DNA of 64,000 nt from the NCBI RefSeq assembly GCF_001447785.1, contig NW_015173687.1, positions 662,694-726,693 on the forward strand, written 5' to 3'. How positions within the stretch are numbered: the stretch's first letter is position 1; the number at the start of each line of letters is the position of its first letter. Position numbers: made by a program. Below are positions 24,001 to 30,000 of this stretch, piece by piece. This DNA comes from Gekko japonicus. Lineage: Eukaryota.

Positions 24001-27000
24001 GGGTACGCATATGCAGAGAGCCCAAAAGGTTCCCATGTGCACACGGAGGTCACCTCTGTATCCCTTACCTTTTTCTGCAGGACTTTACAGGTTGAAAAGA
24101 CTCCATATGGAAGCTAAAACAGTAACACAAAAAGAAACCAAGTCTTGGTTAGATAAAATATCATGAAAATAAACATAAAGAGAGTCACTTTCATGGCTTA
24201 AGACAGCTGAACTTAAATACCCTGCCTCCCATATTGAGAAGGCAAGCAGCAAGGCAATATGTGTGCATGGGGGGAGGGAGAAGCAAGCAGATGGCTGGGA
24301 ATAACAGCAGCTGAACACAAGAATGAACCTTATACGGGATGGGATTGCCTCTCCTGGTATACCCCCCAAAGAGCATTAAGCTCTGAAGATAAGAACTTAC
24401 TGTTGATCCCTGGCCCGAAAGAAGTCCAGATGTCATCAACCAGAGCCAGGGCCTTTTTGGTCCTGGCCACGACCTGGTGAAACTCTCTGCCAAATTACAT
24501 CTGTGTCCTGTGGGACCTTATGCAGTTCCGCAGACCCCGTAAGGCAAAGGTGTTCCGTCAGGCTTATGGTTGAGGATAGCGACAGTTTCCATCTTGCCTG
24601 GCACTCCCTTTCTTCCCCTCCCCCCATGGTATAACCTGTTTATTTTAAGCGCCATCTGAAACAGTTTTGAAATTGTCTTAAATTGTTTTTGGTTTTAACT
24701 GTCTTATTGATTAATAAATGTGCTTTTATATTGTTGTTCACTGCCCTGAGCCTTGTGTTTACAGGGGAAGGCAGTCTCAAAGTCTAATTTAGAAATAAAT
24801 AAATATAAATTATACAGAGCCGGACTGCTGGTCCATCAAGCCTTGTATTTTTTGCTCTGTCTGTAGTGGTGTTCCAGGGTCTCAGGCAGAGAAAGGTCTT
24901 TCCCAACAGCTGCTACTGGAGATCCTTTCACTGAAGATGCTTTGGACTGAACCGGAGACCTTCTGCATGCAAGGGAAGTGCTCTGCCACTGAGCTACAAC
25001 CCCCTCCCACCTTGTCTCCTGATGTCTTGGTTCCTGCTTTATGAGTGAATAACAGGAATGTGCAGCCTCCAATCCGGCAATCTTAAAATAATTTTCAATG
25101 TTCTGGATGTTTCCTCCAAAAAAGATTTCTATACTGATCCCAAAACATATTCTGAAAGCAAAACCAGCTGAGTCTTTAGTCCTTAACAGCTACCTGCCAA
25201 CTCTATCTTGGAAAATCCCTGGAGATTCTGGGGGAGGGAGCTGAGTGGGGATGTGATGTCTTAGAACCCGTCCTCCGAAACGACCGTTTCCTTCAGGGAA
25301 ACTGATCTCTGTAGTTGGAAAATCAATTATACTTTCTGGGGAACTCCAGGCCCCACTGGGAGGCTGGCAATCCATTCATGGCCTTGGCTTCCCAAATCCA
25401 GTCTTCCCTCAAACCACTGACCCACCATGTGGGAATCAGCACCATACCTCTGAAAGTTCGCATTTGGATATATCAAGGATATCATCGGCGCCGGCTTCTT
25501 TTGCCTGAAAAAGAGAGGGGGGGGGGTTGAACAGCTGCAGAATCCAAAGGTCATTTTTACTCTAAGATTGTTGGCCAGGGGTCTCCAACCTTCTGGAGCC
25601 TGCAAGTACCTCTGGACTTCTGACTAAGGGTGGTGGGCACAACTATAAAATAGCTGCAGCAGGAAGTAAAGCCAACCACAAAAATTGCTGCCATGGGAGA
25701 CGGAGCAAACCACAACGCGTCAAGGAGTGAAGTTGTGCCTAACTCTAACGAGAAGCAGCTCTGTTTCACAGGATGCCTTTAAAAATTAACATATGGTTTT
25801 AAAATGTTTCCTTGCAGACAAACAGCTTACTTTCGGTCACTCGGTGAAGACCTGTGTGCTGCCGTGGCCTCTGCTGCCAAAAGCACCTTTAAAAAAAATC
25901 CGCACAGCCAATCAGATCTCCAGGGGCTGATCAGAAGCCCTGCTGGGCAAAAGCCCCACCTGCCTCCATCCACTTTCTAAAAAAAGCCTTGGTGGGTGCC
26001 AGGAAAGTTAGCACTGGGTGCCTTGGTGCCCTCAGGCACCACACTGGGATTCTCTCGTCTAACCCAGAGTTTTTAAAAAAGAGTTCAGTGCAAGTGAGCA
26101 CTACCACAAGTCCTCCATACAGTTTCCCAGTTATAATGGTATGCTTCAAGCGCCACCTATGTATGATCAGGTTCTGGCTCCTTGCTGTTTTCTTTTGTGC
26201 TTGTCTTGTCTCCTACGGGGAGTGAACTGTGTTCTAGTTAAGTTAAAACTTATATCTCCAGGTTCCCCATGACAGCTCAGCCAAATGGGAGGAGCTTTCC
26301 CTGGATTCCCACGCATCTATCAGCATGTACTTGACTGCCTTCCTCCCTGGATGCAGCTCAAGCCTTTTATGGCAGAGTTCACGGAGGTATGTGTACTGTC
26401 CTAAGGCAAACCGTTTCCCATTCATTACAACAACTACCTTTTGAGGCAGGTTAGGCTAAGAGAATGACTACCTCGCTGCCACTCAGTGTGCTTCATGGTC
26501 CAAGAAGTTTGATTCACGCAAGTGAGAAGTGAAATTAAGAATGTTGAGTCAGATCAGTGGGGCTGTGAAATCTGATAGCATCCCTAGACACTGGTACCAA
26601 TCTCTTTTAACAGAGGCCATTTTGGAAGCCTACCCAGGAGGATGGCGCAGCAAAGGCCACACAGTGTTGTTACTCCAAGGTTTTGAATAGTTACAAGAAT
26701 GGGCACAGTAATAAGACCAATGAAAAAAGGAAGAAGAACTGTGACAATTTAGCGCTTGGTAATATATTCATAAATCATAATATACAATAACAGAAAATAA
26801 GTAATATATATAGTGAATGTAGACGGTGGTCTCCGGAATGGTGTGCCGTTTCGACAATGATCTTCTTCTGAACAAGGGTGTGTACCTTATCAAATATAAC
26901 AATACAAGTCTCATTTAAAAATAAATATAACAGTGTGCAAATATATAATATGAATAAGTATAAAAATAGTATGAAACTTTACAAAAACTGTCTTTCAACA

Positions 27001-30000
27001 ATTCATTTCTCTTAGTGACGTATTGCAAATATACTGTTGATTCTAAAAAGTACAACAATAGCTGTTACAATACATTTTCATTGTTATTCAATAATAATTA
27101 CATCACTCCACATACATAAATATTAATATTTTAAATAATTGTAAAAACACTCACCACTTCATCATGAGGCTATGCTTACAGCTATGTTCTTCAATGGGCT
27201 ATAACTGCTGAATGCCTTAACAGGTGGATTCTATGTAGGCATTATATCCTGCTGGTCTGTTTTTTCACACTGATCCTGTTACTACTCATACACAAGTACA
27301 CAAATCACCAACTCCTATGACAATCATCCATGCATATAGGTACAATAAAAAGCACTAACCATCTATAAGTGTTCATAAGTAGCATGTCAAATCCAGGGAT
27401 GCATTCAATCCAAATGGATAAACAGTGTTTAATTTAAAAATCCAAAAGGCTTCTCGCCGCAAGAGTGTTTGTCTAATATCTCTTCTACAGTAATTGCTGG
27501 TCTGGATCACTTCTATAACTACAAATTTAAAATTGTCATATCTATGACCCATTGAAATAAAATGGTCCATGAGGGGGGCTTCTGTATGTTTGTGTTTAAT
27601 TTTGAACACTTATAGATGTTATATTTGATAAGGTACACACCCTTGTTCAGAAGAAGATCATTGTCGAAACGGCACACCATTCCGGAGACCACCGTCTACA
27701 TTCACTATATATATTACTTATTTTCTGTTATTGTATATTATGATTTATGAATATATTACCAAGCGCTAAATTGTCACAGTTCTTCTTCCTTTTTTCATTA
27801 CTCCAAGGTTTTGGCCAGTTTCCTTTCTTGGTGGGACTCGTCAGCTCCAGGGTCCTGGCAACTACTCCACCTTGCCACAACCCTATTCCCCAGGGCAACT
27901 TACCAGGTACATTTGATATTCAAGACGCTTGCGGGCTTCATCGCTGGGTTTCCTTTTACGGAAGAAGAGCAGCATCTTCCTCCTGTCTCCCTGGATCTCG
28001 ACTCAATGCCTGAAGATGGTCAATGGAAAAGACAGGTGAGCCAGAAAGGGAAGAGCAACAAGAATTTCTGGATCATCTCAATATCCGTCTGACAATTACC
28101 TATCTTGTCAGACAGGTTCTGCTTGATAAGCACCTCCTCGAAGCTATTTCAGAAGTACTTCTCAGCGGAACTCCCAGCCTTGCTTATGTGTTAAAAATAC
28201 TTCTGCCAATTCACGTGGGCAGGAAAAATGCCTAGATCAAGTCTCATATTTTCTATAGATCTAAGAAGGAAGAGCTTCAATCCCCCTGCCTCTGTACTGG
28301 GAAACTACATACTTAAATGCCATATTATAAGAACATGAGAGAAGCCAATGTTGGATCAGGCCAATGGCCCATCCAGTCCAACACTCTGTCACACAGTGGC
28401 CAAAAATACCAGGTGCCATCAGGAGGTCCAGCAGTGGGGCCAGGACACTAGAAGCCCTCCCACTGTTGCTCCCCCCAAGCTATTATACCTGAAAGAGGAC
28501 CAGAAACAATCCAGGTTGTTGGAACTGCAGGAGGAGTCAATGGAGACCAATTCCCTAGAAAATATGGCTTGACAATTAAAACATAGCTGATGCCTTATAA
28601 ACAGCCCTTTCATTTTCACTACGTTCCAAGTGTGGAATCACTGAAGAAAGCATTACTCACTAGGGTGGCCAGGTCCTCCCTGGCCACCAGCAGTGTAGGG
28701 GGGAGGTATGGTTAGTTTACTTCAATGATACAGCTTTACCAGCCTAAGGACCATGAGCTGAATCACAATAAAATCCCCTGTGATAAAATCACTCAGTCAT
28801 TTTCGATTGATCATTACCCTGGACATTTTTTTGCAACTGATCTTTCTTATATGCGTGAGCAGCCCACACTCTAAAAGACAGTGCTCCAATGTGTTTATCT
28901 GCCCCAATGCACAGAAGCATGTCCTATCAGAGTAAGGCCTATTACTATATCGACCATATAATAACTGAGATGGAATTGCATTCAGCCACGATAGCATAAA
29001 AGCTGTACCGTAGCGTGGCAGTTAGGAAAATATATATATATATACACACACACACATATGCAGGAGGGCCTTGCGGATACAAAAGACTCAAGCAGACAGG
29101 GGAACAAACCCTTCGAGCTCGCATACATAAGGTAAATAGATCTAATTCAAAAAGCCACTTGGCTAAGGCTGTTGATTCCATAGGCAGGGAAGCAGGGTTG
29201 CCAGCTCCAGGTTGGGAAACTCCTAGAGATTTGGGGGTGGAGCCTGGGGAGGACACAGACCTCAGTGGAGTACAGTGCCGCAGAGTCCACCCTCCAAAGC
29301 ATCCATTTTCTCCAGGGGAATTGATTTCTGGAGTCTGGAGATCGGCTGTAATTCTGGGGGATCCCCAGGTACCACCTGGAGGCTGGCACCCTTATTACTT
29401 ACTCATTTCCCCCTTCGTAAACCAACCTAACGAGGGTGAGTACCCAGATCAGTCACTTTTCAAACTGGTGTGAATGCAAGCTCTATAGATTTTGTGATGT
29501 CATATATAACAGAATATATTGCCAGAGGCTCAGAATTAATCAAAAATGAAGGGTTCATATGTGCACTGATATGAACATTTGCAAGTGGCACACAAGTCAG
29601 TTCTTCCTTCTCCAGAAACAGTTGAAACTGGAGCTGACTGCCTTTGGAAATTAATTTTAAATAGAACTGCCCACCTCATAGGAGCTGTCTCCTTATATCA
29701 TTTACCAGGATCTTACGACTGGAAAGAAAAAAACAAATTACATGAAGGCACGGGAACAAGATTTAAGGGAACAGTTCAGAGAAGATGTTCATGATCAAAT
29801 ATAGCAATCATCATCTCCCTTAAATGCAAGATTAATTAATGTGAAATAAATCACAATAAAAGGGAACCGCCAACAGCACTTAATGCCAAATAAACTCAAA
29901 TGGTGTTCACTGACCAACTCTGATCTGTGCTGACAGAACTGTGGCCGGAAGGGTAATTTATTTCATAGCTGGTGGGCCTGCCCTATGGTCCTGAAAAAAT

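What the first reader, a model, noticed from the sequence alone, without database searches (positions are those of the whole stretch)
26672..27813. Young Penelope-like insertion placing a 183-bp inverted repeat and a hammerhead-like motif in the LRSAM1 pre-mRNA
Seen: the layout is a 14-bp TSD, a 33-bp tail, arm 26719-26901, a 3' region, a GIY-YIG C-terminal ORF (27373-27609, minus), inverted arm 27617-27799 and the second TSD. The arms appear identical by eye, which suggests a recent insertion. It ends about 90 nt from the donor of the first coding exon, and the ORF is sense to LRSAM1. Known: Penelope-like elements form inverted partial pseudo-LTRs with short tails and carry hammerhead motifs. 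Inference: nascent LRSAM1 RNA would fold a 183-bp dsRNA stem next to a splice donor, making it a candidate for ADAR editing, endo-siRNA production or splicing effects. It may be polymorphic.
Basis: partly seen in the sequence, partly recalled or inferred. Interest (0 to 1): 0.7.

Follow-up and report, generated by a model that had tools for sequence, protein, structure and literature searches.

The report
Truncated Penelope-like retrotransposon in gecko LRSAM1 intron
This is a dead, 5'-truncated copy of a Penelope-like retrotransposon with its usual inverted partial copy, sitting in the first coding intron of a gecko LRSAM1 gene; it is a textbook insertion of a known kind, and its hammerhead and double-stranded-RNA effects remain unproven.

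Summary
Arms 26719-26901 and 27617-27799 are 183 nt and 100% complementary. They are flanked by a 14-16 bp target-site duplication, with a 33-bp tail on one side only.

The 78-aa minus-strand ORF has no direct Pfam hit. It has 267 relatives at E<=1e-3. The long ones combine RVT_1 with a C-terminal GIY-YIG domain, which is the Penelope-like element (PLE) architecture. All 20 relatives examined carry the CX2-5CxxC linker motif, so the family looks Neptune-type rather than Penelope/Poseidon.

The host gene is LRSAM1 of a gecko, on the minus strand. The insertion starts 90 nt into the intron after the first coding exon.

The layout fits the published model in which both target strands prime reverse transcription from two start sites 30-40 nt apart (PMC11167929).

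The hammerhead is only a near-match: A replaces U4, helix II has 3 bp, there is no Rfam hit and no folding support.

The 183-bp RNA stem is physically certain if the intron is transcribed. Editing, siRNA and splicing effects, and polymorphism, could not be tested.

This is an ordinary new member of a known kind.

The parts
26670..26685 (.). Left copy of the target-site duplication (16 nt; 14 nt if the first TT is assigned to the element)
   Evidence: Exact direct repeat with 27798-27813
26686..26718 (-). 33-nt 'tail': extra 3'-terminal element sequence, present only on the direct copy
   Evidence: Lies between the duplication and the arm and is absent at the other end. Matches the 30-40 bp one-sided PLE tail (PMC8557442; PMC11167929)
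26719..26901 (-). 3'-terminal 183 nt of the direct (sense) copy; one arm of the inverted repeat
   Evidence: 100% complementary to 27617-27799
26822..26870 (-). Hammerhead-like near-match in the sense copy: CAGAAGA, bulged A, 3-bp helix II, GAAA, CGG/CCG helix III with a TCCGGA palindrome in its loop, GUC
   Evidence: Found by my own descriptors. No Rfam hammerhead hit. The minimum-free-energy fold does not form it
26902..27359 (-). 458 nt of AT-rich 3' untranslated sequence present in the direct copy but skipped in the inverted copy
   Evidence: Junction comparison. Boundaries are not GT-AG in any register
27373..27609 (-). 78-aa open frame: the C-terminal two thirds of a PLE GIY-YIG endonuclease. 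It has no start codon and lacks the GIY, YIG, R and EH motifs. It keeps the two His of CCHH, the conserved E, the RE.FWI block, GLN, and the natural stop. Its first two codons come from the inverted piece
27603..27618 (+). 16-nt inverted copy of the ORF stop region (27360-27375), joined by a shared TG to the inverted arm; inner end of the inverted partial copy
   Evidence: (pair I2); 1 of 500 shuffles reaches 16 nt
27617..27799 (+). Inverted 5'-truncated partial copy (second arm). It ends at the proximal start point without a tail
27798..27813 (.). Right copy of the target-site duplication
27904..27975 (-). Coding part of the LRSAM1 first coding exon (Met1-Leu24); donor GT at 27903-27902
   Evidence: 24 of 24 residues identical to residues 1-24 of Gekko japonicus LRSAM1, with divergence exactly at the GTAAGT

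Best explanation
One retrotransposition event of a Penelope-like element, probably of the Neptune clade, inserted into the first coding intron of a gecko LRSAM1 gene. The insertion is sense to the gene.

Inferred mechanism: the element's endonuclease nicked both target strands 14-16 bp apart, and both 3'-OH ends primed reverse transcription of element RNA.
- The top-strand primer started at the distal start site. It gave the direct copy, with the 33-nt tail, which runs about 917 nt and stops inside the endonuclease coding region.
- The bottom-strand primer started at the proximal start site, 33 nt upstream. It gave the inverted copy: 183 nt, then a jump over 458 nt at a shared TG, then 14 more nt.
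- The two cDNAs were joined at about 27602/27603.

The result is a non-autonomous fossil. It has no RT, no GIY-YIG core and no start codon.

Shown: the anatomy, the family of the ORF, the host gene and the position.

Inferred: the order of priming events and the template jump.

For the host, the only certain consequence is that any LRSAM1 pre-mRNA contains two perfectly complementary 183-nt segments, 715 nt apart, starting 105 nt after a splice donor. They would pair at about -320 kcal/mol. Whether this changes editing, small RNAs or splicing is unknown.
For: Anatomy:
- Arms are 183/183 complementary, with a flanking 16-nt direct repeat and a one-sided 33-nt tail.

Family of the ORF:
- 267 relatives at E<=1e-3 and 17 at E<=1e-10. 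The query always aligns to their extreme C-terminus.
- Of 12 relatives scanned with Pfam at E<=0.01, 8 have RVT_1, 5 have GIY-YIG, 4 have both in that order, and 3 have no family. Several of these scores are below Pfam's curated cut-off.
- The alignment with 20 relatives shows the fragment keeps H..GH, E, LL.RE.FWI, P.GLN and the same C-terminal end.
- 20 of 20 relatives carry CX2-5CxxC upstream of the GIY-YIG core. PMC8557442 (passages) gives this motif as present in Neptune/Nematis and absent in Penelope/Poseidon. A 2026 preprint (10.64898/2026.07.22.740005, passages) finds Neptune and Poseidon to be the widespread vertebrate groups.

Published PLE signature and mechanism:
- An inverted 5'-truncated copy next to the unit, a 30-40 bp tail often at one end only, and a variable duplication (PMC8557442).
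- The Anolis PLE protein cleaves and extends both strands. It starts reverse transcription at two internal sites, and the interval between them equals the tail (PMC11167929, parts 1-2 of 4 read).

Host gene:
- An LRR exon inside 20338-20625(-) is 98% identical to LRSAM1 of Paroedura picta and Gekko japonicus.
- The first coding exon matches 24 of 24 residues.

RNA stem:
- The 1,166-nt fold pairs the whole arms, with an MFE of -488.2 kcal/mol.
- The arm duplex alone is -319.6 kcal/mol.
Against: - The copy itself has no RT and no GIY/YIG core, so family membership rests on 78 aa plus the layout. Pfam does not recognise the fragment directly (0 families at E<=10).
- Two word-index protein searches found nothing: 9 candidates with none significant, and no candidate at all.
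- The best relative is only 51% identical, and no second copy is in the window. So nothing shows that the family is abundant or recently active.
- The Neptune assignment comes from relatives, not from this copy.
- The 458-nt difference between the two copies is not predicted by the simple two-primer model. It needs an extra step: a template jump or a second template.
- The target site is not the 5'-ATT-3' cleavage motif reported for the Anolis element.
Confidence: 0.85

Rival explanations
1. One reading: the insertion matters for LRSAM1. The 183-bp intronic dsRNA next to the donor would be hyper-edited by ADAR, be diced into endo-siRNAs, or alter splicing of the first coding exon.
For: - A perfect 183-bp stem is predicted in the sense transcript, starting 105 nt from the donor.
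- The arms hold 71 and 52 adenosines.
- From general knowledge, not from a call: long perfect intronic inverted repeats are ADAR substrates.
Against: - No expression, editing or small-RNA data can be reached here.
- The gene's coding exons look intact where checked.
- Intronic inverted repeats are common and mostly without consequence (general knowledge).
- The stem is 33% GC and is removed with the intron.
Confidence: 0.2
2. The arms carry a working hammerhead ribozyme, a new gecko PLE variant with A at position 4 and a long helix III. It could cleave element RNA or the LRSAM1 pre-mRNA.
For: - A one-mismatch descriptor hits the arms: core box, optional bulge, G-C-closed helix II of at least 3 bp, GAAA, helix III of at least 3 bp, then UH. 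Markov shuffles of the window give a mean of 0.15 hits per 127 kb, with 3 of 20 shuffles giving one hit.
- The putative cut site lies 103 nt from the proximal start point and 136 nt from the distal one. This is the same order as in the Anolis element, where the cut is at +26 and starts are at +111 to +118.
Against: - No hammerhead family of Rfam matches at E<=10, either in the 1.7-kb region (7 matches, none a hammerhead) or in the whole window (45 matches, none a hammerhead).
- U4 of the invariant core is A. Helix II has 3 bp against the 6-8 reported for PLE motifs. Helix I has at most 3 pairs.
- The 69-nt segment does not fold into the motif, and 150 of 200 shuffles fold at least as well.
- The descriptor was written after seeing the motif. 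The same descriptor also hits two unrelated places, 9841 and 52866.
- No other copy is available for covariation.
- In the pre-mRNA the motif is locked inside the 183-bp duplex.
Confidence: 0.1
3. Assembly artefact: the inverted arm is a mis-join or fold-back read error, not real DNA.
For: - PLE tandem and inverted structures are known to trouble assemblies (PMC8557442).
- The arms are suspiciously perfect.
- The window has three N runs elsewhere.
Against: - The whole unit is bracketed by an exact 16-nt duplication of unique flanking sequence.
- It has the asymmetric 33-nt tail.
- It has a structured inner junction, a 16-nt piece with TG microhomology.
- An artefact would not create these features. 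There is no N within 16 kb of the region.
Confidence: 0.03
4. A fold-back or terminal-inverted-repeat DNA transposon (or two nested insertions in opposite orientation) that happens to contain a PLE fragment.
For: Terminal inverted repeats plus a duplication superficially resemble a DNA transposon.
Against: - The ends are asymmetric, with a tail on one side only.
- The repeat is simply the element's own 3' end.
- The internal sequence is collinear with a PLE ORF end followed by untranslated sequence.
- A single duplication brackets everything, and the arms are identical, which two independent insertions would not explain.
- No second copy of the unit is in the window.
Confidence: 0.03

Closest known systems
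Neptune-clade Penelope-like elements of vertebrates
   Same: - The endonuclease fragment has the PLE hallmarks: the His pair of CCHH, then E, RE.FWI and GLN.
- Its nearest relatives all carry the CX2-5CxxC linker (20 of 20).
- It shows the inverted 5'-truncated copy, the one-sided tail and the variable duplication.
   Different: - This copy lacks the RT, the linker and the GIY-YIG core, so clade placement is indirect.
- The best relative is 51% identical.
- No canonical hammerhead is present.
Poseidon_Ac (PAc) of Anolis carolinensis, the in-vitro model of PLE integration (PMC11167929)
   Same: - Both ends of the insertion look primed from the target.
- The two ends differ by a 33-nt tail, as expected from two adjacent internal start sites.
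- A hammerhead-like motif lies about 100 nt upstream of the start sites.
   Different: - PAc belongs to a different clade, Penelope/Poseidon, which has no CX2-5CxxC.
- Here the terminal region carries stop codons, whereas the PAc start sites lie inside the ORF.
- The target is not an ATT motif.
- The hammerhead core deviates at U4.
L1 twin-priming inversions (analogy, recalled from general knowledge, not from a call)
   Same: Two cDNAs primed from the two target strands converge and are joined with microhomology. This gives an inverted 5' part next to a direct 3' part inside one duplication.
   Different: - In L1 the two parts are adjacent segments of one RNA and do not overlap. Here both copies include the same 3' end, so a perfect inverted repeat results.
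- The enzyme family is different.
Intronic inverted Alu pairs in primates (analogy for the RNA consequence, recalled)
   Same: Inverted repeat copies in one intron form long dsRNA in the pre-mRNA.
   Different: - This is a single insertion event rather than two.
- The arms are perfect.
- The host is a reptile, whose editing of such stems has not been examined here.

Membership tests
Penelope-like elements (EN+ PLE) | Reverse transcriptase of the PLE/TERT-related type in the same ORF | tested here: not met
   Absent from this copy through 5' truncation: tblastn with 150 relatives hits only 27292-27585. Relatives carry RVT_1 upstream of the matching region (8 of 12 scanned). The feature is missing because the copy is a fragment, not because the family differs.
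Penelope-like elements (EN+ PLE) | C-terminal GIY-YIG endonuclease with the CCHH motif and catalytic R, H, E, N | tested here: inconclusive
   Only the C-terminal part is present. The two His, the E and the N are retained. The GIY, YIG, two Cys, R and EH are lost. Direct Pfam scan: 0 families. Homology to the C-terminus of RT+GIY-YIG proteins reaches E = 3e-14.
Penelope-like elements (EN+ PLE) | Pseudo-LTR or inverted 5'-truncated copy adjoining the unit | tested here: met
   183-nt inverted partial copy of the element's own 3' end, 100% identical. Feature as described in PMC8557442.
Penelope-like elements (EN+ PLE) | 30-40 bp 'tail' extension at one end only | tested here: met
   33 nt at 26686-26718, absent at the other end (PMC8557442; PMC11167929).
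Penelope-like elements (EN+ PLE) | Target-site duplication of variable length | tested here: met
   14-16 bp exact duplication (PMC8557442).
Penelope-like elements (EN+ PLE) | Hammerhead ribozyme motif in the pseudo-LTR | tested here: inconclusive
   Near-match with A at U4 and a 3-bp helix II. No Rfam hammerhead at E<=10. No folding support. No second copy for covariation.
Neptune clade | [quoted passage not shown] | not testable with these tools
   The linker is missing from this truncated copy. 20 of 20 nearest relatives examined have it, so the assignment is by proxy.
Hammerhead ribozyme (type I, PLE min-HHR) | Invariant core CUGANGA ... GAAA with cleavage after NUH | tested here: not met
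   The first box reads CAGAAGA, with U4 replaced by A. GAAA and GUC are present.
Hammerhead ribozyme (type I, PLE min-HHR) | Helices I-III supported by covariation | not testable with these tools
   Only one family member (two identical arms) is available, and no eukaryotic DNA collection was open.
LRSAM1 (host gene) | Orthology of exons to named LRSAM1 proteins | tested here: met
   Searched exon by exon. The LRR exon is 95-98% identical to gecko LRSAM1 entries. The first coding exon matches 24 of 24 residues. Two LRR-like exons were found by Pfam below the cut-off. The joined spliced model was not built or searched.

The most novel reading that the evidence does not exclude
The locus may be a natural single-event record of two-sided target-primed reverse transcription by a Neptune-type PLE. 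One cDNA starts at the distal internal start site and the other at the proximal one, 33 nt apart, and the second makes a 458-nt template jump at a TG. On top of that, the arms may carry a so far undescribed hammerhead variant: A4, a long helix III and a palindromic loop for dimerisation. That variant would be active with the element's protein and would define gecko PLE ribozymes. Through its perfect 183-bp stem, 105 nt from a donor, the insertion might also measurably alter LRSAM1 RNA processing.
Probability: 0.1. Interest if true: 0.45.

Novelty: new member of a known kind. Interest (0 to 1): 0.2.

Why it matters
As it stands, this is a cleanly delimited example of how Penelope-like elements integrate. 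It has an inverted partial copy, a one-sided tail and a staggered double nick.

It agrees with the only biochemical model available, which comes from an Anolis element of another clade. That gives the model modest support from a natural insertion.

For the host, it is a candidate presence/absence marker. It is also a ready-made perfect intronic dsRNA for anyone studying RNA editing in squamates.

Nothing here changes what is known about PLEs, hammerheads or LRSAM1.

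Tried and rejected
- Direct Pfam scan of the 78-aa ORF: 0 families at E<=10.
- Word-index protein searches with the ORF. The 'longer' search gave 9 candidates, none significant. The 'near' search gave no candidate. So no close copy was found among predicted proteins, which is weak evidence either way.
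- Rfam at E<=10 on the region and on the whole window: no hammerhead.
- A U3-A8 covariant core (TTGATAA) upstream of the same GAAA was considered. I rejected it because helix II would be four weak pairs closing a 26-nt loop, and helix I would not pair.
- The 458-nt segment as a retained or spliced intron: rejected, because none of the three possible registers gives GT-AG.
- Similarity between the arm and the two other descriptor hits (9841, 52866): none above shuffles.
- A first shuffle test of the 16-nt inverted piece was confounded by AT-rich self-palindromes (6 of 300 shuffles reached 16 nt or more). It was redone with separated arms (1 of 500).
- Pfam on 150 of the 457 minus-strand ORFs of 40 aa or more (those between 3 and 22988). 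It found only two sub-threshold LRR exons and three weak, unrelated sub-threshold matches in two other ORFs. It found no SAM or RING exon and no other transposon domain. The other 307 ORFs, and all plus-strand ORFs, were not scanned.

- Dfam or Repbase comparison.
- Any eukaryotic genome or read collection.
- Supplementary files. The supplementary hammerhead alignments of PMC4209133, which include reptiles, and Fig. S1-S2 of PMC11167929 could bear on the hammerhead variant and the tail.

Full report
**Observation**

The region was read directly and scanned for repeats.
- The two arms, 26719-26901 and 27617-27799, are 183 nt long, 100% complementary and 715 nt apart. A script confirmed exact identity.
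- The unit is bracketed by the direct repeat TTACTCCAAGGTTTTG, at 26670-26685 and 27798-27813. The first TT of the right copy is also the last two bases of the arm, so the target-site duplication is 14-16 bp.
- On the left side only, 33 nt (26686-26718) lie between the duplication and the arm.
- The minus-strand open frame 27373-27609 encodes 78 aa between stops.
- No other copy of any part of the element is in the 64-kb window. blastn gave only self and arm matches. tblastn with 150 relatives gave 146 alignments, all at 27292-27585.

**What the ORF is**

Searches that found nothing:
- Pfam does not recognise the fragment (0 families at E<=10).
- The two word-index searches also found nothing.

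The exhaustive search did find relatives:
- phmmer against 1.84 billion representatives found 267 proteins at E<=1e-3, 17 at E<=1e-10 and none at E<=1e-30. The best was E = 3e-14 at 51% identity.
- In every long hit the match lies at the extreme C-terminus.
- I scanned 12 hits with Pfam at E<=0.01. Eight have RVT_1, five have GIY-YIG, four have both in the order RT then GIY-YIG, and three have no family. Several scores fall just below Pfam's curated cut-offs.
- In P0034 the GIY-YIG domain covers residues 552-637, and the window's peptide aligns to 582-653.

An alignment with the last 135 residues of 20 relatives shows what the window copy keeps and lacks.
- It starts just after the R..EH block.
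- It lacks the GIY and YIG motifs and the two cysteines between them.
- It keeps the His pair, the conserved Glu, the LL.RE.FWI block, P.GLN and the same C-terminal end and stop.
- It is therefore the C-terminal two thirds of a PLE endonuclease, without a start codon and without catalytic completeness.

On the clade, all 20 of 20 relatives carry a CX2-5CxxC motif about 140 residues from the C-terminus.
- PMC8557442 (passages read) gives this motif as present in Neptune and Nematis and absent in Penelope/Poseidon.
- A 2026 preprint (passages) reports Neptune and Poseidon as the widespread vertebrate groups.
- I therefore place the family, by proxy, in Neptune.

**Host and position**

I do not take the window for human.
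- Of the 457 minus-strand ORFs of 40 aa or more, I scanned the 150 lying between 3 and 22988 with Pfam. Two gave sub-threshold LRR matches, at 20338-20625 and 21658-21801.
- The first of these, searched alone over residues 10-52, gave 204 proteins at E<=0.001 among 238 candidates.
- By identity, the closest are LRSAM1 of geckos: Paroedura picta and Gekko japonicus at 98%, and Heteronotia binoei and Sphaerodactylus townsendi at 95%. Three repeat-rich, non-LRSAM1 proteins have lower E-values but only 37-52% identity.
- The ORF around 27883-28002(-) matches residues 1-24 of Gekko japonicus LRSAM1 at 24 of 24. It diverges exactly where the minus strand reads GTAAGT.
- The first coding exon therefore ends at 27904, and the donor GT is at 27903-27902.
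- The right duplication copy begins at intron position 91, and the arm at position 105.
- The element's ORF is on the same strand as the gene.
- The spliced model was searched exon by exon only. The joined protein was not built or searched.

**How the structure arose (inference from anatomy and published biochemistry)**

Published background:
- PMC8557442 describes PLE insertions as highly 5'-truncated. They often have an inverted 5'-truncated copy adjoining the unit, and a 30-40 bp tail that is often present at one end only.
- PMC11167929 (parts 1 and 2 of 4 read) shows that the purified Anolis Poseidon protein cleaves and extends both target strands.
- The same paper shows that reverse transcription starts at two adjacent internal sites. 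The interval between them corresponds to the tail.

The present locus fits this directly.
- The plus strand at the left junction continues from flank into the complement of the tail. This is a start at the distal site and gives the direct copy.
- The minus strand at the right junction continues from flank into the complement of the arm end without the tail. This is a start at the proximal site, 33 nt upstream, and gives the inverted copy.
- The 14-16 bp duplication is the stagger between the two nicks.

**The inner junction**

- 27603-27618 is an exact inverted copy of 27360-27375, which is the stop codon plus 13 nt (pair I2).
- With arms required to be separate, 1 of 500 dinucleotide shuffles reaches 16 nt. 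An earlier version of the test was confounded by AT-rich palindromes.
- The inverted copy is thus 14 nt of ORF end, a shared TG, and the 183-nt arm. It lacks the 458 nt (27359-26902) that the direct copy has between those points.
- None of the three possible registers gives GT-AG, so this is not a canonical intron.
- A template jump by the RT, a second template RNA, or an insertion in the direct copy remain open.
- The first two codons of the 78-aa frame belong to this inverted piece.

**Age**

- Zero differences in 183 bp, or 197 bp with the duplication, give only an upper bound.
- With assumed neutral rates of 0.5, 1 and 2e-9 per site per year, the 95% bound is about 16, 8 and 4 million years. 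The rates are my assumption and come from no call.
- The well-preserved conserved residues agree with little decay.
- 'Young' is therefore reasonable but loose. Gene conversion between the arms could also keep them identical.

**Hammerhead**

The candidate motif:
- Rfam gives no hammerhead match at E<=10, in the 1.7-kb region (7 matches, none a hammerhead) or in the whole window (45 matches, none a hammerhead).
- My own descriptors find one candidate in the arm's sense strand: CAGAAGA, a bulged A, GAUCAUUGUC, GAAA, CGG, a 19-nt loop containing UCCGGA, CCG, then UC. It lies at 27648-27696 on the plus strand and 26870-26822 on the minus strand.

Points in its favour:
[quoted passage not shown] The candidate shows the first two and has a palindrome in loop 3.
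- A fairer descriptor, allowing any single mismatch in the first box, hits four places in the window: the two arms, 9841 and 52866. Markov shuffles give a mean of 0.15 per 127 kb, with 3 of 20 shuffles giving one hit.
- The putative cut lies 103 nt from the proximal start point and 136 nt from the distal one. This is comparable with the Anolis element.

Points against it:
- The invariant U4 is A.
- Helix II has 3 bp, against the 6-8 reported for these motifs.
- Helix I has at most 3 pairs.
- The 69-nt segment does not fold into the motif, and 150 of 200 shuffles fold at least as well (z = +0.72).
- The descriptor was written after seeing the motif.
- The two other hits share no sequence with the arm, so the genomic background may simply be higher than the shuffles suggest.
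- There is no second family member for covariation.

I call it a hammerhead-like relic of unproven activity. That changes at core position 4 strongly reduce cleavage is recalled knowledge, not a call result.

**Consequence for the host**

- Folding the 1,166-nt sense transcript pairs the arms over their whole length (MFE -488.2 kcal/mol).
- The arm duplex alone is -319.6 kcal/mol at 33% GC.
- If the intron is transcribed, the dsRNA will form.
- Editing, dicing and splicing effects are plausible by analogy with intronic inverted repeats elsewhere (general knowledge). They are untested here, as is polymorphism.
- In the sense orientation the element has no AATAAA and two ATTAAA.

**Rivals**

- Assembly artefact. 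This is unlikely because the exact duplication of unique flank, the asymmetric tail and the structured inner junction are features of integration, not of mis-assembly. No N lies within 16 kb.
- DNA transposon, or two nested insertions. This is unlikely because the repeat is the element's own 3' end, the ends are asymmetric, and a single duplication brackets identical arms.

**Comparison and novelty**

- The closest known systems are Neptune-clade PLEs for membership, tested feature by feature in the membership table, and the Anolis Poseidon element for mechanism. L1 twin priming and inverted Alu pairs are analogies from recall.
- PLEs are reported in reptiles (PMC11167929; PMC4209133). A search for Penelope, gecko and squamate papers (listing; PMC6050309, passages) showed nothing specific to this locus. 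I make no claim that gecko PLEs are undescribed.
- Verdict: a new member of a known kind, ordinary, and useful mainly as a clean natural example of the two-start-site, two-strand model.

**Left unchecked**

- Any eukaryotic DNA or read collection, and Dfam/Repbase.
- Supplementary figures of PMC4209133 and PMC11167929.
- The other 307 minus-strand ORFs and all plus-strand ORFs, for Pfam.

Noticed in passing
window 41242-41374 (+) and 40047-40177 (+): Two SNORA65 H/ACA snoRNA matches. The first scores 95.3 bits (gathering score 70); the second scores 64.6 bits, below the gathering score. They probably sit in introns of a plus-strand host gene upstream of LRSAM1. From recall, SNORA65 is hosted by RPL12, a neighbour of LRSAM1 in other amniotes. 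This was not tested.
   Followed up: no
window 62451-62553 (-), 9994-10120 (+), 33947-34022 (+): 5S rRNA-like matches at 44.9, 40.0 and 24.5 bits (gathering score 38). Scattered single copies in and near a protein-coding gene suggest 5S-derived SINEs rather than rRNA genes.
   Followed up: no
window 52866-52895 (+) and 9841-9870 (+): Two further hits of the one-mismatch hammerhead descriptor. The one at 52866 reads CTGACAA, a bulged A, a 5-bp helix II and GAAA. They share no sequence similarity with the PLE arm. They could be relics of other PLE families or chance matches.
   Followed up: partly
window 54161-54340: An AT-rich palindromic stretch that matches a dozen unrelated miRNA families on both strands, all below their gathering scores. 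It is probably a simple hairpin-forming repeat.
   Followed up: no
window 27603-27618 versus 27360-27375, and 26902-27359: The inverted partial copy skips 458 nt that the direct copy contains, with a shared TG at the break. The cause is unresolved.
   Followed up: partly
window 5266-5518, 8388-8412, 9521-9805: Three runs of N. They were left as they are.
   Followed up: no
window 4566-5249 (-) and 17832-18380 (-): Long stop-free frames of 228 and 183 aa inside the LRSAM1 gene body, with no Pfam match at E<=0.01. They may be decayed transposon ORFs or chance.
   Followed up: no
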